The notes under the pieces were generated by a model, which did not search any database, was not told where the DNA came from, and worked only from the letters and a program-made list of their open reading frames with translations. This document shows, one piece after another, positions 8,950-39,863 of a stretch of DNA of 64,000 nucleotides. How positions within the stretch are numbered: the stretch's first letter is position 1; each line of letters begins with the position of its first letter. The position numbers and the translations under genes are program-made. Origin of the DNA: Candidatus Cloacimonadales bacterium (GTDB taxonomy: Bacteria > Cloacimonadota > Cloacimonadia > Cloacimonadales > JAIOQZ01); the NCBI GenBank assembly GCA_963665815.1, contig OY762463.1, positions 1,045,469 through 1,109,468 on the forward strand, in the 5' to 3' direction.

Positions 8950-9060
8950 TCATTTTGATATAAGACATTAAGAAAGGCTGTCCTGTGGGCAGCCTGTTTC
9001 ACTCTCACAAAGAACGATCCCCAGACAACTATAGCAGCAATTATCAGCAACCCGGTGAAC

Positions 9061-9336
9061 AATTTTCTTGACCATTTTCCACTCATGAGCTCAATTTAGT
9101 CATAATATGGAGTAAGGAGACAGGATTGTACGTAGGTAACACAGCTTTAGTTGTCCAGGAAGACCACTACTACCCGTTCGGAATTAGGTTAGTCGGAATG
9201 TCCACCGATACCGGGCAGAATAATAAATTCCTTTACAACAATAAGGAATACGAAAATGAAAATAAGGTACCTCCTATGGTCTTCGAACTGACGTTCTACA
9301 GACTTCGGAGTGGAGACTCTCGCCTACGGCTACGAG
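9061..9336 (+). repeat. 276-bp dispersed direct repeat, copy 1 (cassette head: non-coding leader + SD + TTG + RHS-core-like 5' coding part)
   Basis: Collinear without indels with 12125-12400 at a constant offset of 3064 nt. The match runs from AATTTTCTTGACC.. through ..AATATGGAGTAAGGAGACAGGATTGTA.. to ..CGGCTACGAG, with scattered substitutions. Confidence 0.9.
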
Positions 9337-10055
9337 CTCATTTTTGGAGACTTTCGGGCTATGCCCTGCAAGCTCATTGCTGGATGGCAGTTGATCCAGC
9401 TGATGAGTTTTTTAGCCCTGAAGGTGTCTCTTATGGTTCTCGGATCGGAATCCTACGAACTTCAGAGACGAGACTCTCGCCTTCGGCTACGAGCTTATAT
9501 AATGACCCGGTGAACTTCCTTGATCCGGATGGGGCGGAGCAAACTCCAGCTTACTTAGTTGTAGATATAATGTTGGACTATGTTGAATTAGATGGGAAAC
9601 TAAGTAACTCAGGCGTAATAGCAAAACTAAATGAAGCTGCATCTATTGCAGAGGGTAGATTCAATAGACATAATCCAAATGATTCAGACATACTAAAGGC
9701 AAAATATCTGCATGACGGTAAATTTTTAAGAAGTTGTGCAACAATATCTTCTTCTAACAGTACTATAAAAGGGATAGATACTGGAAAAAAAATAACAGTA
9801 GGAGCTGGGGCTCTTGCAGTCGGAGGAGTCGGTATAAATGCAGCACGAATGGGGGCAAAGCATATGGCACAGCCTTTACTGAATGGTACATATGATCTTA
9901 TGGCTGGAGGAACTGATGTTCTAAGTTTGGGTACAACACTTTTTATAGAAACTCCTCATGTTGACCACAAGGCAATTAAGAAAGATTGGAACTTAAGATA
10001 TAAATATCAAGATTATGACAGAGGAGATGATGGATATGATTTTAATGAACTTTGA
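9126..10055 (+). CDS. orphan RHS-repeat-associated-core C-terminal fragment with variable toxin-like tip
   Basis: TTG start lies 6 nt after AAGGAG. The N-terminus LYVGNTALVVQEDHYYPFG..FLYNNKEYENE, then WMAVDPADEF and YNDPVNFLDPDG, match the end of RHS/YD core domains. About 180 unrelated C-terminal residues follow, containing a glycine-zipper-like stretch (VGAGALAVGGVGINAARMGA). In-frame stops lie upstream and no long YD-repeat body is present. The middle of the core region is occupied by GC-rich repeat elements, so the gene may be partly degenerate. Confidence 0.65.
   Translation: MYVGNTALVVQEDHYYPFGIRLVGMSTDTGQNNKFLYNNKEYENENKVPPMVFELTFYRLRSGDSRLRLRAHFWRLSGYALQAHCWMAVDPADEFFSPEGVSYGSRIGILRTSETRLSPSATSLYNDPVNFLDPDGAEQTPAYLVVDIMLDYVELDGKLSNSGVIAKLNEAASIAEGRFNRHNPNDSDILKAKYLHDGKFLRSCATISSSNSTIKGIDTGKKITVGAGALAVGGVGINAARMGAKHMAQPLLNGTYDLMAGGTDVLSLGTTLFIETPHVDHKAIKKDWNLRYKYQDYDRGDDGYDFNEL
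9296..9341 (+). repeat. GC-rich 46-nt element, copy A (a degenerate half-copy follows at 9345-9378)
   Basis: CTACAGACTTCGGAGTGGAGACTCTCGCCTACGGCTACGAGCTCAT. By hand alignment 39/46 positions are identical to copy B. It is followed by TGGAGACTTTCGGGCTATGCCCTGCAAGCTCATT, which repeats its right half in degenerate form. The element is much more GC-rich than the surrounding sequence. Confidence 0.8.
9453..9498 (+). repeat. GC-rich 46-nt element, copy B
   Basis: CTACGAACTTCAGAGACGAGACTCTCGCCTTCGGCTACGAGCTTAT. It sits in a different codon phase of the same ORF than copy A (copy A starts at phase 2, copy B at phase 0). The similarity is therefore at nucleotide level, not protein level. Confidence 0.8.
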
Positions 10056-10085
10056 AAGTTCAATAAATAACAAAAGGAAATATCA

Positions 10086-10979
10086 ATGAGGTACTTACTG
10101 ATTACTATAGTACTTTTTATAGGTACATTTACTCTATATAGTGTTGAACTATTATCCGTTGAACAGTTAAATGAATTTGCGGATTCAATTCGTAGTAAGA
10201 TGGTAGCAAATGATTTTACTGGAATCTGTATGATGGAAAAAGGAATGAGAAACTTTATAACAAATACAGATCAATTATATATGAAGTATGAATCCTTTGA
10301 TGTTCTTGCAAAGTCATTTATCTTGATCAATGAATATAGTAAAGCTAAACAATGCTATAGCGACATAACAAAAATACTATCAGTCACTCAAAATACAGTT
10401 TACTGTAAATATTGGGTAATTGCTAAATTCAAAACAATAATTGCAAATAAAAAGCTTAGTTTTGAAGAAAAGATGAAGGAATTAGAAAGATTTAGAGTTT
10501 CTGATTTTAAGAATCTTAATGTGACATGCTATTATGAAGTTTTAAGTTATATGTTAACTGGATCAAAAATACGAAAGCAATATTTTCTTGACTTGTTTAA
10601 AGACCGAGTCGTTTCTAATGATATCAAAATCAATTTTATGATTTTCTTATCAATAATTGAAATAGATGAAGAAAATAATGATGAATCAATGAAATATTTG
10701 AAAAGAGCAGAAAAATTAATACCAACGATTACAAATTTCAGGAATATATTAGAAATGCAACTCAATTTGGCAAAAACCTTGTTATATGATAGACAACAGA
10801 ATATTGCAGAAAGCAACAAGTATTTATCCAAAGCTATTCAAATTAAATCCTCAATTTCTAACCTAGATAGTATCAATATCTTTAGTTTAATGAAATTTGA
10901 CAACATGATTCCTTATCCTGATAATGTGATAAGGCAACTAGAAAGTATTGAGAGGAGGATAAATGAGCAAAAGAATTAA
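10086..10979 (+). CDS. hypothetical secreted/membrane-anchored all-alpha (TPR-like) protein; candidate immunity protein
   Basis: 297 aa with N-terminal hydrophobic segment MRYLLITIVLFIGTFTLYS. The composition is helical-repeat-like. It lies immediately downstream of the RHS-type tip. Function not recognised. Confidence 0.6.
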   Translation: MRYLLITIVLFIGTFTLYSVELLSVEQLNEFADSIRSKMVANDFTGICMMEKGMRNFITNTDQLYMKYESFDVLAKSFILINEYSKAKQCYSDITKILSVTQNTVYCKYWVIAKFKTIIANKKLSFEEKMKELERFRVSDFKNLNVTCYYEVLSYMLTGSKIRKQYFLDLFKDRVVSNDIKINFMIFLSIIEIDEENNDESMKYLKRAEKLIPTITNFRNILEMQLNLAKTLLYDRQQNIAESNKYLSKAIQIKSSISNLDSINIFSLMKFDNMIPYPDNVIRQLESIERRINEQKN

Positions 10980-11913
10980 GATAAATAGTATCCTTCTGTT
11001 GGTTTTATTAACATTTTGTTCAAGATTTTTTGCATTTGAATATGTGAACTATTATCCTTTGAAGCAAAATTTAACACTTGAAGAGAAAGAGGTGGTAGAA
11101 AATTTCTCTTTCTTGATGAAAGACATATTGAACGACAATTTCGCAATCGCTGGAACAAGCTTATCATTCATTTTCAGTCGTAATCAATTAAAAAATAATC
11201 CATTTGTTACAGAAAATCCTAAAGTCATATTAATTCAATTCAGGGTAATTTATAACATAAGAATTGGAAATTATGAATTGGCTAAACTCTTATTTGATGA
11301 AGTTGAAAAGTCCTTCCAAGAGCCTACTAATGATTTATCAAATGAGTTCTTCGAAGAGCTCAAATTGTATAAGTATTCAATTATGGCTAAACTGGAACCA
11401 GATAGTTTAGAATATTATGCGCGAAAAATCATAGATATTGTTACTCCTAAAGATTTATTCTGCTATACATATCGCTTGAACTGGTTATTTGATAATGGCT
11501 ATTACAATGATTTACAGAAGATTGTAAAAAACTCAAATGATACTTTTGATATAATTAGTAACATAAGGTGTCTTTATGAGCAAAAAAAGTATGATGATAT
11601 TGAAAATTTATTTATTCAGTTGAGTCGCAGTCCTCACAAACAAACTCCCGATCTTTTGCTTTATATTAGTTATATTAAATGCCTTATCGCCTTTAATAAG
11701 GGAAAAATCGACAAATCGATAAAGCTTTTAAAGAAGAATCAAAGAATGTTTAATGAGCTTGAAGTTTATATTAAAACTCATAATTTGAGAGAAAGATTTA
11801 TTGATGAAAGTTTAAGAACACTAGTATTTAATTTTGATGGATTGAATTTCACTTTAACAAATGAGCAGATAATGCAACTGTTGACAATCCAAGAAATGAG
11901 TAAATTAGATTAA
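10963..11913 (+). CDS. hypothetical secreted all-alpha (TPR-like) protein, translationally coupled to the previous gene
   Basis: 316 aa with signal-like N-terminus (INSILLLVLLTFCSRFFA). It overlaps the upstream gene by 17 nt. The composition is helical-repeat-like. Function not recognised. Confidence 0.6.
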   Translation: MSKRIKINSILLLVLLTFCSRFFAFEYVNYYPLKQNLTLEEKEVVENFSFLMKDILNDNFAIAGTSLSFIFSRNQLKNNPFVTENPKVILIQFRVIYNIRIGNYELAKLLFDEVEKSFQEPTNDLSNEFFEELKLYKYSIMAKLEPDSLEYYARKIIDIVTPKDLFCYTYRLNWLFDNGYYNDLQKIVKNSNDTFDIISNIRCLYEQKKYDDIENLFIQLSRSPHKQTPDLLLYISYIKCLIAFNKGKIDKSIKLLKKNQRMFNELEVYIKTHNLRERFIDESLRTLVFNFDGLNFTLTNEQIMQLLTIQEMSKLD

Positions 11914-11930
11914 CTTTTTTATATTGAAAA

Positions 11931-11955
11931 GCCAGAACTCGTTTTCTGGCTTTTT
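11931..11955 (+). terminator. rho-independent terminator
   Basis: GCCAGAA-ctcgtt-TTCTGGC followed by TTTTT, 18 nt after the stop at 11913. Confidence 0.8.
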
Positions 11956-12124
11956 CTGTCTGAACCATGATTCTCTTGATTTATATGATTGAAGGATTGC
12001 AAGGATAAACACCTTCGGAATGGTTAAAGACCTTCCGAATGGTGTGACAAACTGCTATCTTTTTTTTGAAATCAACTGTGCAGTCCTGTAATACGCGTAG
12101 AGGCAACCGGACGGTTGACTCAAT

Positions 12125-12400
12125 AATTTTCTTGACCATTTGCCACTACTGAGCTCAATTTAGCCTTAATATGGAGTAAGGAGACAGGATTGTATCTGGG
12201 AAACACAGCTTTAGTAGTACAGGAAGACCATTACTATCCATTTGGGCAACGTTTGAATGGGCTTTCCATGGCAAGTGCAAATCCTAATAACTTTCTTTAC
12301 AATGGGAAGGAATTTGAAGATGAGAATAATGTACCTCCTATGGTCTTCGAACTGACGTTCTACAGACTTCGGAGTGGAGACTCTCGCCTGCGGCTACGAG
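12125..12400 (+). repeat. 276-bp dispersed direct repeat, copy 2
   Basis: Matches 9061-9336. Homology stops exactly at ..CGGCTACGAG (12400), the right end of the GC-rich element. Confidence 0.9.
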
Positions 12401-12408
12401 ATTATTAG
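12190..12408 (+). pseudogene. truncated second copy of the RHS-core-like cassette head (no toxin tip)
   Basis: It has the same SD and TTG start. LYLGNTALVVQEDHYYPFGQRLNG..FLYNGKEFEDENNVPPMVFELTFYRLRSGDSRLRLR is then followed by a stop 3 codons after the repeat ends. The WxxVDP and DPDG motifs and any tip are missing. Confidence 0.7.
12360..12405 (+). repeat. GC-rich 46-nt element, copy C
   Basis: CTACAGACTTCGGAGTGGAGACTCTCGCCTGCGGCTACGAGATTAT. Nearly identical to copy A up to CGGCTACGAG, after which the flanks diverge completely. Confidence 0.8.
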
Positions 12409-12626
12409 TAAAGAAATTATCTTTCACCTGCACAATAATAGAATCAGGTTCAATGCTGTAAATAAGCCCAAATTCTGCCTGTTCATCCTGACTTAGCACC
12501 ATGGATTTACCTTTAAACTCCAGTATCAAGGTTTTACCTATAACACCGGTTATGTTTATTTCTGGTCGATGGACAATGGGCTATGAGCAAAGTCGTCGCA
12601 TATACTTTTAACACCATTTGCAAATC

Positions 12627-12653
12627 AAAAAGGCCCCGAGAATTCCCAGAGCC
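12627..12653 (-). terminator. repeat copy of the same terminator (array unit 1)
   Basis: Identical hairpin followed by UUUUUGAUUU on the minus strand. Confidence 0.7.
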
Positions 12654-12813
12654 TGTAAAGTTAGTTGGATGTCAAATGCGACGAAATCCCGACCTATTTG
12701 AAAAGGTCCTTCAGCAGTTTTTCTGCTTCTTTTTCGACTTTCTTGCCAACAAAAGAAAGTCTTTTCCCTTAAATCAAAGTTGTCGCATTATCTATAGTGA
12801 TGAACATTTCAAT

Positions 12814-12842
12814 AAAAAAAGGCCCCGAGAATTCCCAGAGCC
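12814..12842 (-). terminator. repeat copy of the same terminator (array unit 2)
   Basis: Identical hairpin followed by a run of 7 U on the minus strand. Confidence 0.7.
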
Positions 12843-13005
12843 TGTAAAGTTAGTTGGATGTCAAATGCGACGAAATCTCGACCTATTTGAAAAGGTCCTT
12901 CAGCAGTTTTTCTGCTTCTTTTTCGACTTTCTTTCCGGCAAAAAGAAAGTCTTTTTACCTTTTTGGGGTAGTTGTCGCATTATCTATAGTGATGAACATT
13001 TCAAT

Positions 13006-13034
13006 AAAAAAAGGCCCCGAGAATTCCCAGAGCC
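13006..13034 (-). terminator. repeat copy of the same terminator (array unit 3)
   Basis: Identical hairpin followed by a run of 7 U on the minus strand. Confidence 0.7.
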
Positions 13035-13196
13035 TGTAAAGTTAGTTGGATGTCAAATGCGACGAAATCTCGACCTATTTGAAAAGGTCCTTCAGCAGTT
13101 TTTCTGCTTCTTTTTCGACTTTCTTTCCGGCAAAAAGAAAGTCTTTTTACCTTTTTGGGGTAGTTGTCGCATTATCTATAGTGATGAACATTTCAA

Positions 13197-13226
13197 TAAG
13201 AAAAGGCCCCGAGAATTCCCAGAGCC
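13197..13226 (-). terminator. native rho-independent terminator of gene 13267..15135
   Basis: Minus-strand RNA reads GGCUCUGGG-aauu-CUCGGGGCC, a 9-bp stem including three G-U pairs, followed by UUUUCUUAUU. On the plus strand the same positions are C-A mismatches, so the terminator is strand-specific. Confidence 0.8.
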
Positions 13227-13266
13227 TGTAAAGTTAGTTGGATGTCAAATGCGACGAAATCTCGAC

Positions 13267-15135
13267 CTATTTGAAAAGGTCTTTCAGCAGTTTCTCTGCT
13301 TCTTTTTCGACTTTCTTTCCGGCTTTATCTTTTTCCTTATCGATTTTGCCTTGAACTTCATTTTGTTTACCTTTGACCTTAGCTAATTGCTTATCGATCT
13401 TGCTTTGCATTTTTTTCATTTCAGAATCAAGCCTTGCTTTCTGTTTGTTTATCTGGTCATCAAGTTGTTTCTTGTACTTGGCAACTTCTTTATCAACCTT
13501 CTTACGCAATTCTTGTTTAGCTCGATCTACTTCTGCACTGAGTGCTTTTTTCATTTCTCTTGCAATCAGATTATCGAGATTACTATTCAAGTCGAATGAG
13601 TAATCAGAATCTTTCTGGCTGATTTTTGCATCAAAAGTAATAACATTTATTGCCTGAGTAATCCTCTTTGCAATTCTCAGGAGATGTTTGTTAAGCTTCT
13701 TTGAGTACACATCTGAAAACCTGAGTTTGTCTCCCTTAAAACCTACACTTGAAACAAAGTCACTGTTAAGAATATCAATCTCTGAGCTGAATGTTGCTTG
13801 TCCTGATTCCAGTTTTTCAGGTAACAAGACAAAATTGGAAAGTTTTGTTCCGTTAAGTGGTATTTCACTAGCAACAATTTTTACGTTCTCGTGGAATTGC
13901 TCATTTCTGTGGTCCAGAGTAGCATCTATGCTTGCTTTGAACAATCCGGCTCTGCTTCCGCTTAATTTTGCAGTAATCGGAGTATTAATTCTGTCCTGAT
14001 CAGATGAGATATTGAATATCTGTCCTTTAATTTTGAGCCCGTCACCTGCTTCACCGGAAAGAGTAATTTCTTTCAGCCAGAAGTTTGGTAATTCAGGATA
14101 TTTTTCTGCTTTGGGTTCTGCTTCTACAGCTTCAGGTTTATCCTGTTTGATTTCTCTCGACATCTGTATGTATCCTATAGCCATCATTAAACCATCTGAA
14201 AGTCTGTCTCCAAACAGCATTTTTGCAATATCTTCAACATTTGATGAAGGTAGGTTAGCAATATTCAATGCTTTGTTATAATCCGCTTTAACCCACTTAG
14301 GAACATCTTTTCTGAGACCATTAAGAAGCTTCATATCTTTAGAGAAATTCTTTTTAACCTCTTTAGCTTCTTTAAACAGTTTCTGAGATTTATCATAAGC
14401 AAATTTAGCATTATCCAGAGCTTTCAATAACTCATCAAGCTTCTTCAAATTATTAACATCTATTGCACTGATCTTTTTCTCAATTTCTTTATAATCTTTT
14501 TCATAAGTATTGTTTTTGAATTTATCATCCCAATATGCGTAACGTTCATCTGCAATTTTCTTAAGTGAATCAATTTTAGCAGGTGTCTGAAGTTCGAGAA
14601 GAGCGAATACGGAATCAACATCGATATTTGCCTTAAGTGAAGCAGGATCAAATACAGGAATCTTATCCTTTTCTTCCATGATCTTTGCTTTGATCTTTTC
14701 AGTTACCATTTTAGCTACTTTGCTCTGTCCTTTTTTCTTCTTTTTAGGATCAGGCTCAATATAACCATCTTCCGCTCTGACAGTATTCATTTTAAAGTTT
14801 ACTAACTGTACTTTATTCATGACAACTTTCTTTGCCAGCAGAGGTTTAATCTCCATATTAATTTCTGTTCGACCAAATTCAAACAGGTTTTTCTTTGTAT
14901 TGTCCTTATCAGTCATCTGGAATCTGTTCCAGGACAATGTTCCTTCGAATGGTTCAAACTTGAGACTGTCAACATTGAGTTGAGCTCCATAGATTTTGGA
15001 ACCTTTCCCTTCAATAAAATTTGTAAGTATATTATTTCTGAAGTGATAAACTCCAAATAATCCACCTGCAAAAATTATAAGAAATATAAGTAATCCAAGA
15101 AAAAACTTACCAAATTTCTTAAAGAATTTCTTCAT
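13267..15135 (-). CDS. membrane-anchored envelope protein with Lys/Glu-rich coiled-coil tail (AsmA/DUF748-like; family uncertain)
   Basis: 622-aa ORF with N-terminal TM anchor FFLGLLIFLIIFAGGLFGVY. A long mixed alpha/beta region is followed by a C-terminal coiled coil (..KQELRKKVDKEVAKYKKQLDDQINKQKARLDSEMKK..). Confidence 0.7.
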   Translation of the reverse strand: MKKFFKKFGKFFLGLLIFLIIFAGGLFGVYHFRNNILTNFIEGKGSKIYGAQLNVDSLKFEPFEGTLSWNRFQMTDKDNTKKNLFEFGRTEINMEIKPLLAKKVVMNKVQLVNFKMNTVRAEDGYIEPDPKKKKKGQSKVAKMVTEKIKAKIMEEKDKIPVFDPASLKANIDVDSVFALLELQTPAKIDSLKKIADERYAYWDDKFKNNTYEKDYKEIEKKISAIDVNNLKKLDELLKALDNAKFAYDKSQKLFKEAKEVKKNFSKDMKLLNGLRKDVPKWVKADYNKALNIANLPSSNVEDIAKMLFGDRLSDGLMMAIGYIQMSREIKQDKPEAVEAEPKAEKYPELPNFWLKEITLSGEAGDGLKIKGQIFNISSDQDRINTPITAKLSGSRAGLFKASIDATLDHRNEQFHENVKIVASEIPLNGTKLSNFVLLPEKLESGQATFSSEIDILNSDFVSSVGFKGDKLRFSDVYSKKLNKHLLRIAKRITQAINVITFDAKISQKDSDYSFDLNSNLDNLIAREMKKALSAEVDRAKQELRKKVDKEVAKYKKQLDDQINKQKARLDSEMKKMQSKIDKQLAKVKGKQNEVQGKIDKEKDKAGKKVEKEAEKLLKDLFK

Positions 15136-37780: not shown

Positions 37781-37787
37781 AAAAATC

Positions 37788-38459
37788 CTACTCCCCATAC
37801 TGAATATCTATAGTCATACTTTCAGTACTGGTGTAATTAACTTCTTCTGATATTACTTGGCCATGGAGTTCGGAAAAGGCATAAATATTGAATTTTCCAG
37901 TTAAATCACCATGCTCCATATCACTTCTCATTGGATTGTTCAGCATAATCTGAGAATCAGAGATTGAGAACTTCCCGTTTTCATCAGTTTTGTCATAGTA
38001 TGTGAATTGAGTGAAGTTGTCAAAACCAACGGTACAATATATAGCAGGCACTGCAATTGTTAATGTATCACTACTTTCAACAGATCTCATGTTAACCTTA
38101 TAGAAATCTGTCTTTACATACTTATCGCTTTCATTGGTTCCATCCCAGCTCACAGCGTGATACCCGGCCTCCTGATTTTCGCTTAAAAGCACCTTAACAG
38201 TATCAGAAATATTCTCTGTTGATATCCAGATTTTCGTATATCCAGCATCATGGAGGGAATAGTGGATGCTTGTAGTTGGTCTCTCTGGGGCATCAGTATT
38301 TTCATAAACGTAATCTATCCCGACATATGCATTTGTAACAGGTTGTCCGTCTGCATCAGTAATCTGACCTTTAACGTATTTAGTATCACTGCTTGTTGAA
38401 TTGCAACTGCAAAGCAATAAAGAACAAAGTATAATCAATATCATCTGTGAGTATCTCAT
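37788..38459 (-). CDS. lipoprotein, tandem paralog A (CarboxypepD_reg-like + FlgD-Ig-like)
   Basis: 223 aa with lipobox LLLCSC. VKGQITDADGQPVTNAYVGI (carboxypeptidase-regulatory-like). GYHAVSWDGTNESDKYV (FlgD-Ig-like). Confidence 0.8.
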   Translation of the reverse strand: MRYSQMILIILCSLLLCSCNSTSSDTKYVKGQITDADGQPVTNAYVGIDYVYENTDAPERPTTSIHYSLHDAGYTKIWISTENISDTVKVLLSENQEAGYHAVSWDGTNESDKYVKTDFYKVNMRSVESSDTLTIAVPAIYCTVGFDNFTQFTYYDKTDENGKFSISDSQIMLNNPMRSDMEHGDLTGKFNIYAFSELHGQVISEEVNYTSTESMTIDIQYGE

Positions 38460-38483
38460 TTATTCCCCTTAAAGTATAATCTT

Positions 38484-39161
38484 TTAATCCTCTTCCCCAT
38501 ACTGAATATCTATAGTCATACTTTCAGTACTGGTGTAATTAACTTCTTCTGATATTACTTGGCCATGGAGTTCGGAAAAGGCATAAATATTGAATTTTCC
38601 AGTTAAATTACCATGCTCCATATCATCTCGCATTGAACTGTTCAGCATAATCTGAGAGTCAGGGATTGAGAACTTCCCGTTTTCATCAGTTTTGTCATAA
38701 TATGTAAATTGAGTAAAATTTTCATTGTTTACATTGCAGTATATGGCTGGTACGGCAATAATAAGTGTATCACTTGTTTCATCTGATCTCATATTAAACT
38801 TATAGAATCCTGTTTTAACATAGTACCCGTCATCATTAGTTGCATCCCATGTTACATAATGATAACCGACATCCATGTTTTCATTAAGAAGCACTTTTAC
38901 AGTATCAGAAATATTTTCTTTTGATATCCAGATCAGTGTTTGTCCTGCTTCCTTTATAGAGAAAGATATATTTGTTGTGGGTCTTCCCAAGTCGTAATCA
39001 GTTTCATATCTATAGTCTATTCCCACATAAGCATTAGCAACAGGCTGTCCGTTTGCATCAGTAATCTGACCTTTAACGTATTTAGTATCACTGCTTGTTG
39101 AATTGCAACTGCAAAGCAATAAAGAACAAAGTATAATCAATATCATCTGTGAGTATCTCAT
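38484..39161 (-). CDS. lipoprotein, tandem paralog B
   Basis: 225 aa. The signal peptide is identical to A. The middle differs (..DYRYETDYDLGRPTTNISFSIKEAGQTLIWISK..NENMDVGYHYVTWDATNDDGYYV..). Confidence 0.8.
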   Translation of the reverse strand: MRYSQMILIILCSLLLCSCNSTSSDTKYVKGQITDANGQPVANAYVGIDYRYETDYDLGRPTTNISFSIKEAGQTLIWISKENISDTVKVLLNENMDVGYHYVTWDATNDDGYYVKTGFYKFNMRSDETSDTLIIAVPAIYCNVNNENFTQFTYYDKTDENGKFSIPDSQIMLNSSMRDDMEHGNLTGKFNIYAFSELHGQVISEEVNYTSTESMTIDIQYGEED

Positions 39162-39185
39162 TTATTCCCCTTAAAGTATAATCTT

Positions 39186-39863
39186 TTAATCCTCTTCCCC
39201 ATACTGAATATCTATAGTCATACTTTCAGTACTGGTGTAATTAACTTCTTCTGATATTACTTGGCCATGGAGTTCGGAAAAGGCATAAATATTGAATTTT
39301 CCAGTTAAATTACCATGCTCCATATCATCTCGCATTGAACTGTTCAGCATAATCTGAGAGTCAGGGATTGAGAACTTCCCGTTTTCATCAGTTTTGTCAT
39401 AATATGTAAATTGAGTAAAATTTTCATTGTTTACATTGCAGTATATGGCTGGTACGGCAATAACAAGTGTATCACTTGATTCATCTGATCTCATATTAAA
39501 CTTATAGAATCCTGTTTTAACATAGTACCCGTCATCATTAGTTGCATCCCATGTTACATAATGATAACCGACATCCATGTTTTCATTAAGAAGCACCTTA
39601 ACAGTATCAGAAATATTCTCTGTTGATATCCAGATTTTTGTATATCCAGCATCATGGAGGGAATAGTGGATGCTTGTAGTTGGTCTCTCTTGGGCATCAG
39701 TATTTTCATAAACGTAATCTATCCCGACATATGCATTTGTAACAGGTTGTCCGTCTGCATCAGTAATCTGACCTTTAACGTATTTAGTATCACTTTGAGT
39801 AAGAAAGCAGCTGCAGAGAGTGAAACATGCTAATATTGATAATAGTAAAAGCGAAAATCTCAT
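39186..39863 (-). CDS. lipoprotein, tandem paralog C (chimera of A-like and B-like segments)
   Basis: 225 aa with its own signal peptide (MRFSLLLLSILACFTLCSC). Residues 24-92 match A with 1 difference. Residues 93-225 match B with 2 differences. Confidence 0.8.
   Translation of the reverse strand: MRFSLLLLSILACFTLCSCFLTQSDTKYVKGQITDADGQPVTNAYVGIDYVYENTDAQERPTTSIHYSLHDAGYTKIWISTENISDTVKVLLNENMDVGYHYVTWDATNDDGYYVKTGFYKFNMRSDESSDTLVIAVPAIYCNVNNENFTQFTYYDKTDENGKFSIPDSQIMLNSSMRDDMEHGNLTGKFNIYAFSELHGQVISEEVNYTSTESMTIDIQYGEED

What the first reader, a model, noticed from the sequence alone, without database searches (positions are those of the whole stretch)
12590..13323. Tandem array that re-copies a gene's last 17 codons, 3' UTR and strand-specific terminator four times: candidate 3'-UTR-derived structured RNA array
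Seen directly:
- The tail of the 622-aa minus-strand gene (..KKVEKEAEKLLKDLFK, TAG), its about 40-nt UTR and its terminator occur head-to-tail four times. The hairpin is at 12632, 12821, 13013 and 13205, giving periods of 189, 192 and 192 nt.
- The hairpin pairs fully only as minus-strand RNA (GGCUCUGGG-aauu-CUCGGGGCC, three G-U pairs, then a U-run).
- Each non-native unit adds about 67 nt that the real gene lacks.
- That added segment carries an inverted copy of the coding-derived segment (GACTTTCTTT ... AAAGAAAGTC, 10 bp). In the diverged unit 1 the stem is 9 bp although the loop sequence has changed.
- An 8-bp long-range pair (AATGCGAC ... GTCGCATT) brackets it.
- A TTGAAA...GATAAT promoter-like stretch lies right after the preceding terminator, but the spacer is only about 14 nt, so this promoter is weak evidence.
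- The copied codons cannot be translated. An in-frame TAA lies just upstream, with no ATG, GTG or TTG in between.

Inference: these may be three extra, individually terminated, roughly 190-nt structured RNA units born from a 3' UTR. Alternatives are a slipped-strand amplification with no function or an assembly artefact. I know of no described element with this layout.
Basis: partly seen in the sequence, partly recalled or inferred. Interest (0 to 1): 0.7.

Follow-up and report, generated by a model that had tools for sequence, protein, structure and literature searches.

The report
Tandem copies of a gene's end
The last ~190 bases of a membrane-protein gene region (final codons, stop, trailer and transcription terminator) have been duplicated head-to-tail in a small group of Cloacimonadales bacteria; this looks like an ordinary DNA duplication that stacks terminators, not a new family of RNA genes.

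Summary
Window 12590-13353 holds four head-to-tail units of 189/192 nt. Each carries the last 17 codons and stop of a TIGR03545-family gene, a 39-nt 3'UTR and a strand-specific intrinsic terminator.

It is not an assembly artefact in kind. The two closest relatives, from independent assemblies, carry the same layout: L001 has four mosaic, diverged units, and L002 has two copies of its own tail. Twenty-seven distant homologue loci have none.

The "67 extra nt" are mostly the gene's native downstream flank, which also follows the last unit, plus a diverged piece of gene sequence. That piece carries a templated inverted insertion.

The RNA-gene reading is not supported:
- No sigma-70-like promoter was found in any unit.
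- There is no Rfam match.
- There is no covariation; all domain pairs are invariant.
- No ORF is conserved.
- L002 lacks the domain.
- The apparent conservation disappears once the locally young 3' block is used as the baseline.

Best explanation: a template-switch or microhomology tandem duplication, expanded by unequal crossing-over, at the edge of a hypervariable island. Its by-product is a stack of terminators facing both ways.

One feature is unexplained. The octamer GTCGCATT/AATGCGAC is conserved in all three genomes.

Interest is low to moderate.

The parts
13267..15135 (-). TIGR03545-family gene (622 aa; DUF748-like N-terminus, lysine/glutamate-rich coiled-coil tail). Its last 17 codons plus the stop are the copied 'tail'.
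   Evidence: ORF and translation. NCBIfam TIGR03545 scores 225.7 bits against a cutoff of 173.35. Pfam DUF748.
13162..13353 (-). Native unit. It holds gene codons, the stop (13267-13269), a 39-nt UTR, the terminator hairpin (13204-13227) and the post-terminator flank ending in AATGCGAC (13166-13173).
   Evidence: the repeat finder copy 4. Terminator scan. Sequence.
12970..13161 (-). Extra unit W_1. Junction segment, tail copy 13075-13128, UTR, terminator 13012-13035.
   Evidence: 100% identical to the next unit. Tail 52/54 and post-stop 92/93 identical to the native unit.
12778..12969 (-). Extra unit W_2. Tail copy 12883-12936, terminator 12820-12843.
12589..12780 (-). Distal extra unit W_3 (189-nt period). 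Tail copy 12694-12747, terminator 12631-12654, variant post-terminator flank, and a last ATGCGAC at 12595-12601.
   Evidence: Positional orthologue of L001 unit 3 (post-stop 83%, junction 39/42 identical).
13117..13143 (+). Junction-born inverted repeat GACTTTCTTT-N7-AAAGAAAGTC. Also at 12925-12951 and 12736-12761. On the plus strand it is followed by a T run, so it is terminator-like facing the opposite way.
   Evidence: Folds at -10.4 kcal/mol as plus-strand RNA. Absent from the native gene and from L002.
13248..13255 (-). Conserved octamer GTCGCATT, 11 nt after each stop. Copies at 13248-13255, 13056-13063, 12864-12871 and 12675-12682. Its inverted partner AATGCGAC lies at 13166-13173, 12974-12981 and 12782-12789, with a 7-nt version at 12595-12601.
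   Evidence: All 8 ATGCGAC heptamers in the 64-kb window lie in the array, against 2.7 expected. Both are conserved in L001 and L002.
8997..12590 (.). Non-syntenic island that starts immediately after the last ATGCGAC(G)ACTT. It carries plus-strand genes that converge on the array and RHS-core-end fragments.
   Evidence: Synteny with L001 stops at 12642 and resumes at 8997. Internal direct repeats 9058-9342 and 12122-12406. Weak TIGR03696 hit.

Best explanation
This is a DNA-level tandem duplication, behaving like a minisatellite, of the ~190-bp 3' end region of a TIGR03545 gene.

The duplicated segment runs from about 17-24 codons before the stop to about 45 bp past the terminator. It covers the stop codon, the 39-nt 3'UTR and the intrinsic terminator.

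How it arose (inferred). It probably formed by replication slippage or template switching. The switch would be between A/G-rich microhomologies (TAAAG / GATAAGG) in the lysine/glutamate codons and in the downstream flank. The founding junction carries a templated inverted insertion. In it, GA-TAAA-GCC became GA-CTTTCTTTT-GCC, the reverse complement of the adjacent AAAGAAAGTC.

How it changed afterwards (inferred from unit mosaics). Unequal crossing-over and gene conversion changed the copy number. They shuffled unit variants and kept the copies like each genome's own tail.

What the extra units are. They are most likely not genes. The copied codons are untranslatable, and no unit promoter is evident. 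Transcripts that escape the first terminator simply meet identical terminators 2-4. The junction hairpin plus T run faces the converging genes.

The by-product is a two-way stack of terminators between the TIGR03545 gene and a hypervariable island.

Shown here: the array, its homologues, the unit anatomy, the terminator hairpins, and the lack of a promoter, covariation or a conserved ORF. Inferred: the mutational mechanism, and any insulating effect.
For: Array and anatomy.
- The array is real and consists of exact in-register copies.
- A variant of the post-terminator flank plus ATGCGAC-RACTT also follows the last unit. The 3' part of the junction aligns to gene sequence upstream of the tail. 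The unit is therefore one contiguous native stretch.

Relatives.
- L001 (95% protein identity) has a 188-nt array of 3.4 copies built from mosaic variants: two hairpin types and two flank types. Its distal hairpin has decayed to -5.7 kcal/mol.
- L002 (85% identity) has two copies of its own tail, 45/46 identical to each other, although that tail differs from the window's tail at many sites.
- Adjacent inner units are the most alike, at 100%.
- Twenty-seven distant homologue loci have no tail copy. It is the only large tandem repeat in the window and in both relatives' loci.

No gene-like features.
- No promoter-like site in any array.
- No covariation.
- No Rfam family.
- No conserved ORF on either strand.

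Conservation baseline.
- Non-coding unit parts are 83-93% identical between the window and L001.
- Third-codon positions of the adjacent last 120 codons are 76-92% identical, against about 60% (0.48-0.78 per 50-codon window) in the rest of the gene.
- The block is therefore locally young, and there is no excess conservation to explain.

Terminators face both ways.
Against: - The octamers GTCGCATT and AATGCGAC(A)ACTT are conserved in all three genomes. This includes L002, where synonymous sites are near saturation (third-position identity about 0.58) and the upstream intergenic region no longer aligns. A purely neutral duplication does not predict this.
- Tandem duplicates are expected to collapse by recombination, yet a duplicated state is present in all three known members of the clade.
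- A unit running from AATGCGAC to the terminator folds well (-53.1 kcal/mol, z = -4.8).
- L001 has a better-spaced promoter-like TTGTTA-N17-CAGAAT after its first two terminators. I read this from the sequence; it falls below the scan threshold.
- No expression data exist.
Confidence: 0.6

Rival explanations
1. Each extra unit is an autonomous, individually terminated structured sRNA gene of about 150-190 nt, born from the gene's 3'UTR. It would be transcribed from a promoter that overlaps the preceding terminator's T run and the AATGCGAC box.
For: - The unit fold is a closed four-helix domain plus terminator, -53.1 kcal/mol, z = -4.8.
- Every unit ends in a competent terminator.
- An A-rich, -10-like hexamer (GATAAT / CAGAAT / TAAAT) directly precedes GCGAC in every unit of all three genomes. 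This is read from the sequences.
- L001 has TTGTTA-N17-CAGAAT.
- The 29-nt UTR block between the stop and the hairpin is identical between window units and L001 unit 3.
Against: - No promoter passes the scan in any genome. The window's spacer is 14 nt, whereas the gene's own promoter uses 16/17.
- A start about 7 nt after the -10 would remove the 5' arm of the closing stem.
- All pairs are invariant, and the covariation term is +1.64.
- The G-C to G-A change at the base of the inner helix in L001 is not compensated.
- L002 unit 2 has no closing stem and no inner helix.
- L001's distal unit is decaying.
- The conservation is explained by a locally young block.
- No Rfam hit.
Confidence: 0.12
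2. The duplication is retained by selection as a two-way transcriptional insulator. Four minus-strand terminators and three plus-strand terminator-like hairpins would separate the TIGR03545 gene from converging, frequently exchanged island genes.
For: - Terminator-like sites on both strands: 11 found against 1.5 expected.
- The plus-strand hairpin exists only in the non-native units and is followed by a U run.
- The array sits exactly at the synteny break, with converging plus-strand genes next to it.
- In L002 the only scan-detected terminator for the gene lies after the second tail copy.
Against: - The plus-strand hairpin is A-U rich (3 G-C pairs, -7 to -11 kcal/mol).
- It is absent in L002.
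- The island's last gene has a terminator-like hairpin of its own at about 11930-11955, read from the sequence and outside the range scanned for function here.
- One good terminator usually suffices.
- Nothing tests selection.
Confidence: 0.13
3. The array is a DNA-level protein-binding or recombination element. Eight GTCGCATT octamers in alternating orientation would act as binding sites (iteron-, operator- or att-like). The tail copies would be stacked remnants of site-specific integration at the gene's 3' end.
For: - The octamers occur only in the array, in the 64-kb window and in L002's 17.9 kb. L001 has one further copy.
- They are the best-conserved non-coding feature across all three genomes.
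- Synteny breaks right after ATGCGAC-RACTT.
- The same octamer forms three inverted pairs in the 3' end of a PrimPol-PriCT_2-AAA_25 replication gene in a family of 21 viral contigs. Three permuted controls gave 3, 0 and 6 single hits.
Against: - No integrase, transposase or Rep gene lies near the array in the window or in the two relatives' loci.
- No tail copy or octamer lies at the far end of the island.
- Site spacing is 83/109 nt, against roughly 20-50 nt in the viral arrays.
- Nothing but the octamer is shared with the viral contigs, and the AACTT flank is not conserved in that family.
- Whole units, not just the sites, are repeated.
Confidence: 0.07
4. The units are sense/antisense modules resembling tandem type I toxin-antitoxin repeats. 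A small hydrophobic peptide (MRRNLDLFEKVLQQFFCFFFDFLSGKKK...) would be encoded antisense to the tail, starting at the ATGCGAC box, and be controlled by the overlapping sense RNA.
For: - An antisense ORF starts at ATG of ATGCGAC in every unit of the window and L001 and ends in a lysine run.
- Each direction has a terminator-like hairpin.
- Known type I loci are often tandem repeats (abstract of PMC2887945, listed).
Against: - Antisense of lysine/glutamate codons is automatically phenylalanine/leucine-rich and free of stops. The same frame stays open for 116 aa across the real gene in L001 and 267 aa across the whole window array.
- ORF length and C-terminus vary (32, 32, 40, 267 aa).
- In L002 the ATG opens a different frame and a different peptide, read.
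- No promoter.
- No family hit above threshold.
Confidence: 0.04
5. Assembly artefact. The repeat would be an expansion or mis-join produced by the assembler.
For: Two units are 100% identical and the native unit differs from them by 3 nt. The exact copy number in the window therefore cannot be verified without reads.
Against: - Independent assemblies of two related genomes show the same architecture, with units diverged enough to assemble unambiguously. These are a 1.28-Mb MAG contig and a 150-kb contig.
- The distal window unit is distinct.
Confidence: 0.04

Closest known systems
Intergenic tandem-repeat (VNTR / minisatellite) loci of bacteria, such as MIRU-type loci of mycobacteria (from my own knowledge)
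   Same: Head-to-tail units abut or overlap a gene end. Copy number and unit variants differ between close relatives. The most similar units are adjacent. Evolution is by slippage and unequal crossing-over.
   Different: The unit here is long (about 190 nt). It consists of the gene's own last codons plus a complete intrinsic terminator. It occurs once per locus, not as a dispersed family.
3'UTR-derived sRNAs (CpxQ, SdhX, DapZ, MicL types) and tandem multicopy sRNA genes (for example LhrC1-5 of Listeria) (from my own knowledge)
   Same: The RNA would span the end of a coding region, a short conserved single-stranded stretch and the mRNA's own terminator. Tandem paralogues each have a terminator.
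   Different: No promoter or processing site is evident, there is no covariation and there are no transcript data. The domain is missing in L002.
Tandem type I toxin-antitoxin repeats (Ldr/Rdl long direct repeats, Ibs/Sib), per the abstract of PMC2887945 and my own knowledge
   Same: Tandem repeats of a few hundred nt, with a small hydrophobic ORF and an overlapping antisense transcript.
   Different: The hydrophobic ORF here is a compositional consequence of reading lysine/glutamate codons backwards. It is not conserved in frame or length.
Tandem terminators such as rrnB T1-T2 (from my own knowledge)
   Same: Successive intrinsic terminators behind one transcription unit, giving fail-safe termination.
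   Different: Here they are identical copies made by duplication, each dragging a copy of the coding tail. The duplication also created opposite-facing hairpins.
Duplication of a gene's 3' end at attL/attR of integrative elements (tRNA, tmRNA and protein-gene targets) (from my own knowledge)
   Same: A gene tail is repeated downstream of the intact gene at the edge of a variable island.
   Different: No integrase is present, no large insert lies between the copies, and no matching repeat lies at the far side of the island.
Iteron clusters in replication modules (lambda O/ori, P4 alpha/ori-crr). The viral PrimPol-helicase contigs found here are a candidate example, but the iteron role there is my inference
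   Same: The same octamer GTCGCATT occurs in alternating orientation as a cluster.
   Different: Only the octamer is shared. The spacing is 2-4 times larger, no Rep gene is present, and the viral contigs share no other sequence with the host loci.

Membership tests
Intrinsic (Rho-independent) terminator | G+C-rich stem-loop immediately followed by a U run on the transcribed strand | tested here: met
   Four minus-strand sites with 10 pairs, 6 G-C, loop 4, then a T run. Folding energy is -15.5 kcal/mol as minus-strand RNA against -4.6 as plus-strand RNA.
Tandem duplication / VNTR-like locus | Head-to-tail, in-register copies of one contiguous native segment, with one novel junction | tested here: met
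   The flank after the last unit matches the inter-unit flank up to ATGCGAC-RACTTTG.
Tandem duplication / VNTR-like locus | Copy number and unit composition vary among close relatives, with signs of concerted evolution | tested here: met
   Four units in the window, four mosaic units in L001, two in L002. Tails match each genome's own gene.
Autonomous sRNA gene (3'UTR-derived type I, or tandem multicopy sRNA) | Own promoter upstream of each unit | tested here: not met
   No sigma-70-like site in the arrays. The window candidate has a 14-nt spacer, whereas the gene's own promoter has 16/17.
Autonomous sRNA gene | Secondary structure supported by compensatory changes | tested here: inconclusive
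   The 34 non-terminator pairs are invariant or broken, apart from two G-U wobble changes. One double change lies in the terminator. The covariation term is +1.64. Only 5 related sequences were available.
Autonomous sRNA gene | Discrete transcript with defined 5' and 3' ends | not testable with these tools
   No transcript data are available.
Described RNA family (Rfam 15) | Match to a covariance model | tested here: not met
   Nothing overlaps the array at E<=1 in the window, or at E<=0.1 in L001 and L002.
Type I toxin-antitoxin tandem repeat | Conserved small hydrophobic ORF with a stable frame and length | tested here: not met
   Lengths are 32, 32, 40, 116 and 267 aa. The frame differs in L002 (read).
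Integrative-element att duplication | Recombinase gene nearby, and the repeat bracketing the inserted DNA | tested here: not met
   Pfam and NCBIfam scans of neighbours show no integrase or transposase. No tail or octamer lies at the far end of the island.
Diversity-generating retroelement (template/variable repeat) | Differences between the copies confined to adenines of the template copy | tested here: not met
   The native tail and the copies differ at 2 synonymous sites, one A-to-G in each direction. A reverse transcriptase was not searched for across the whole window.
Iteron / origin cluster | Closely spaced repeated binding sites next to a replication-initiator gene | tested here: not met
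   Sites are 83/109 nt apart and no Rep-like gene is present. tblastx of the viral contigs against the host loci gave no hits.

The most novel reading that the evidence does not exclude
The extra units are functional rather than debris. One possibility is that they are young sRNA genes born by duplicating a gene's 3' end, which would be a caught-in-the-act example of sRNA gene birth with variant 'seed' and terminator modules in L001. The other is a DNA element whose alternating GTCGCATT octamers are bound by a protein. That octamer is the one repeated in a family of viral PrimPol-helicase replication modules.
Probability: 0.12. Interest if true: 0.65.

Novelty: new member of a known kind. Interest (0 to 1): 0.27.

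Why it matters
As it stands, this is a clean natural example of three things.
- A replication error can copy a complete gene end with its terminator.
- Such copies then evolve in concert.
- The duplication junction itself can create a new hairpin facing the other strand.

It is a useful caution for annotation. The array produces a spurious 267-aa ORF and sRNA-like folds.

If the units turned out to be transcribed, it would document sRNA gene birth from a 3'UTR by duplication. The conserved octamer is the one feature that could still hide a specific protein-DNA or RNA interaction.

Tried and rejected
1. Coding readings.
- The sense mini-ORF MRQL... is in frame with the tail in only one L001 unit.
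- The antisense ORF and the 267-aa plus-strand ORF are composition artefacts and are not conserved.

2. Known RNA families. Rfam at permissive thresholds found nothing on the array.

3. Mobile-element origin.
- No match of the unit in phage or plasmid collections.
- No other copy of the unit or the octamer in 64 kb.
- No recombinase nearby.

4. A selection argument from conservation. I first took 83-93% identity of non-coding unit parts, against 54-64% at fourfold sites, as a sign of constraint. I withdrew this when the adjacent last 120 codons showed 76-92% third-position identity, which points to a recombination-young block.

5. A genome-wide habit. This is the only large tandem repeat in the window, L001 and L002.

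6. A family-wide feature. It is absent from 27 distant TIGR03545 loci.

7. More relatives.
- The exact-protein lookup found nothing.
- The genome collection returned only the L001 contig.
- The metagenome scan found only homologues at 42% identity or less.

8. A link to the viral octamer family. Nothing beyond the octamer is shared.

9. Literature. No paper on TIGR03545 function or on this layout turned up.


Full report
**1.

- Tandem Repeats Finder reports one array at 12627-13323, with period 192, 3.6 copies and 96% matches.
- The repeat finder places four in-register copies at 12589-12780, 12778-12969, 12970-13161 and 13162-13353, spaced 189/192/192. The two inner copies are identical.
- A 40-nt hairpin-plus-UTR string is present exactly four times, with none expected by chance.
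- The minus-strand ORF 13267-15135 (622 aa) ends KKVEKEAEKLLKDLFK*. It is a TIGR03545-family protein, scoring 225.7 bits against a cutoff of 173.35, with a DUF748-like N-terminus.
- Each unit has a terminator-like hairpin on the minus strand. The hairpin folds at -15.5 kcal/mol as minus-strand RNA and only -4.6 as plus-strand RNA.
- The 10-bp inverted repeat, the 8-bp AATGCGAC/GTCGCATT pair, the badly spaced TTGAAA-N14-GATAAT and the in-frame TAA are all as described.
- Neither inverted repeat is improbable on its own. A perfect inverted repeat of 8 bp or more occurs in 40% of shuffled units, and one of 10 bp or more in 8%.

**2. Anatomy of the unit**

Read in the gene's orientation, a unit has these parts in order:
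- a junction segment of about 35 nt;
- the tail (17 codons plus TAG);
- 11 nt;
- GTCGCATT;
- 20 nt;
- the G+C-rich hairpin and its U run;
- about 30 nt of post-terminator flank;
- AATGCGAC.

The '67 nt that the gene lacks' are not foreign.
- A variant of the post-terminator flank, plus ATGCGAC-RACTTTG, also follows the last unit (12595-12630).
- The 3' half of the junction aligns with the gene just upstream of the tail (ATTTAAGGGAAAAGA against GATAAGGAAAAAGA). This is low-complexity sequence, so the alignment is only suggestive.
- The one truly new piece is GA-CTTTCTTTT-GCC in place of GA-TAAA-GCC. It is the reverse complement of the adjacent AAAGAAAGTC.
- That is the signature expected from a replication template switch at the founding junction. 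This is my inference from established models of misalignment mutagenesis.

**3. Relatives**

The protein search found only two close relatives, at 95% and 85% identity. The next best is 43% or lower.

- L001 is a 1.28-Mb contig of a Candidatus Cloacimonadales MAG. It has a 188-nt array of 3.4 copies after the orthologous gene.
  - Its units are mosaics of two hairpin/UTR types and two flank types.
  - Its third unit is the positional orthologue of the window's distal unit.
  - Its last unit has a decayed hairpin at -5.7 kcal/mol, which the scan does not call as a terminator.
- L002 is an independent 150-kb contig. It has different neighbours on both sides but keeps a two-copy version.
  - Its own tail is repeated 45/46 identical after about 100 nt.
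  - That ~100-nt stretch contains GTCGCAT ... AAATGCGACAACTT.
  - The only scan-detected terminator lies after the second copy.
- Twenty-seven loci of distant homologues (42% identity or less) have no tail copy.
- The array is the only large tandem repeat in the 64-kb window and in both relatives' loci.

The structure is therefore real and specific to this lineage. Only the exact copy number in the window, where three units are nearly identical, remains unverified.

**4. Tests of the RNA-gene reading**

- A unit from AAUGCGAC to the terminator folds into a closed multi-helix domain plus terminator (-53.1 kcal/mol, z = -4.8).
- Comparison gives it no support.
  - On five distinct units, RNAalifold returns a positive covariation term (+1.64).
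  - All pairs of the closing stem and inner helices are invariant or broken.
  - The only double change lies in the terminator.
- L002's second unit lacks both the closing stem and the inner inverted repeat.
- No sigma-70-like promoter passes the scan in any of the three arrays.
- This organism does use such promoters. The TIGR03545 gene itself has a conserved TTGACT-N16-GATAAT, equally readable as TTGACT-N17-ATAATT.
- A start downstream of the unit's GATAAT would also remove the 5' arm of the closing stem.
- Rfam finds nothing on the array.
- ORFs are not conserved.
  - The sense MRQL... frame joins the tail in only one L001 unit.
  - The antisense MRRNL... frame is the automatic phenylalanine/leucine-rich, stop-free reverse reading of lysine/glutamate codons.
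  - It varies from 32 to 267 aa, and the ATG opens a different frame in L002 (read).

**5. Conservation and its baseline**

- Non-coding unit parts are 83-93% identical between the window's distal unit and its L001 orthologue.
- Fourfold-degenerate sites in three neighbouring genes are only 54-64% identical.
- That looked like constraint until I profiled the gene.
  - Third-position identity is about 0.6 for codons 1-500 (0.48-0.78 per 50-codon window).
  - It jumps to 0.92, 0.76 and 0.83 for codons 501-550, 551-600 and 601-623.
  - Window against L002 shows no such jump.
- The last 120 codons and the array therefore form a locally young block, most simply a recombination tract ending beside a variable island.
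- The units are no better conserved than neighbouring synonymous sites.

**6. Context**

- Synteny with L001 runs from 16755 to 12642. It then breaks for 3.6 kb in the window (2.2 kb in L001) and resumes at 8997.
- The break begins right after the last ATGCGAC-GACTT.
- The window's island carries plus-strand genes that converge on the array. It also carries RHS-core-end fragments and is bracketed by its own ~285-nt direct repeats.
- No integrase, transposase or Rep gene is nearby.
- The far edge of the island has no tail copy or octamer.
- The junction hairpin is followed by a T run on the plus strand. Each extra unit therefore carries one terminator-like element in each direction.

**7. The unexplained feature**

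- GTCGCAT(T) and (A)ATGCGAC are found only in the arrays, with one exception. That exception is a single copy 74 nt upstream of the gene's start codon in L001.
- They are conserved in all three genomes, including L002, where little else outside the gene aligns.
- A viral-contig scan with the motif hit two contigs. There, TGTCGCATTG/CAATGCGACA forms three inverted pairs inside the 3' end of a PrimPol-PriCT_2-AAA_25 replication gene.
- That arrangement recurs in 21 viral contigs. Three permuted control patterns gave 3, 0 and 6 single hits.
- Only the octamer is shared. The AACTT flank is not conserved in the viral family, and the site spacing differs.
- I regard this as a probable coincidence. 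It does show that the octamer can serve as a repeated recognition element.

**8. Verdict**

The best explanation (confidence 0.6) is an ordinary DNA-level tandem duplication of the gene's 3' end region.
- It would have been founded by microhomology or template-switch slippage in A/G-rich sequence.
- Unequal crossing-over and gene conversion then reshaped it.
- L002's copy could be either the same old event kept uniform by conversion, or an independent event at the same microhomology.
- The by-product is a two-way stack of terminators at the border of a hypervariable island.

The main rivals are a selected insulator function (0.13), an sRNA array (0.12) and an octamer-based DNA element (0.07). 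Transcript-end mapping and more genomes of the clade would decide between them.

I rate this a new member of a known kind, with low-to-moderate interest.

Noticed in passing
window 12583-13386 (+): A 267-aa ATG ORF runs through the whole array, because 189 and 192 are multiples of 3. It is antisense to the gene tail and is likely to be called as a repeat-containing hypothetical protein. It is not conserved: L001's period is 188. Pfam hits are all below threshold.
   Followed up: yes
window 9058-9342 and 12122-12406 (+): Direct repeats 3064 nt apart (87-89% identical) bracket the non-syntenic island. Both encode an RHS-core-end-like peptide (HYYPFG...LYNGKEFEDE). The TIGR03696 hit is weak (E = 0.06), suggesting orphan polymorphic-toxin C-terminal modules with no full-length RHS gene nearby.
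   Followed up: partly
window 9264-9341, 9421-9498, 12328-12405 (+): A 78-nt element (26 codons, in frame) is repeated three times at 76-95% identity. It sits inside the RHS-like ORFs, right after the YNGKE motif where the conserved core normally continues. It could be a miniature insertion element or an intervening sequence.
   Followed up: no
window 11959-12046 (+); L002 10099-10187 and 100-156: A short element shared between genomes contains a 19-nt tandem repeat (AAACACCTTCGGAATGGTT). In L002 it lies directly after the array's terminator. In the window it lies after the island's last gene, in the opposite orientation relative to the TIGR03545 gene. It may be a MITE or a transposon-end remnant.
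   Followed up: no
window 13267-13640 (codons ~500-623 of the TIGR03545 gene): There is a sharp rise in synonymous-site identity to L001 at about codon 500, from about 0.5 to 0.92. This suggests a homologous-recombination breakpoint inside the gene, next to the variable island.
   Followed up: partly
L043 672-843, L044 2653-2824, L055 5723-5894 and 18 further viral contigs (L045-L063): A family of viral contigs carries two or three inverted pairs of TGTCGCATTG in the 3' coding end of a PrimPol-PriCT_2-AAA_25 primase-helicase gene. These look like origin iterons embedded in the replication gene.
   Followed up: partly
L002 / protein P0002: The 85%-identical homologue is labelled in EukProt as an Anaeramoeba ignava protein. 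Its 150-kb contig is plainly bacterial (POR, tRNA, T9SS-tail genes), so it is a bacterial associate or contaminant in that eukaryote's data.
   Followed up: no
window 37784-39487: Three copies of a 300-nt segment lie at 702-nt spacing (87-88% identical). They are probably tandem paralogous genes or a repeated domain.
   Followed up: no
L001 7921-7927: The only ATGCGAC outside the array in L001's 17.9 kb lies 74 nt upstream of the TIGR03545 start codon, just before the -35 of the gene's promoter. The window has AATGAC at that position instead.
   Followed up: partly
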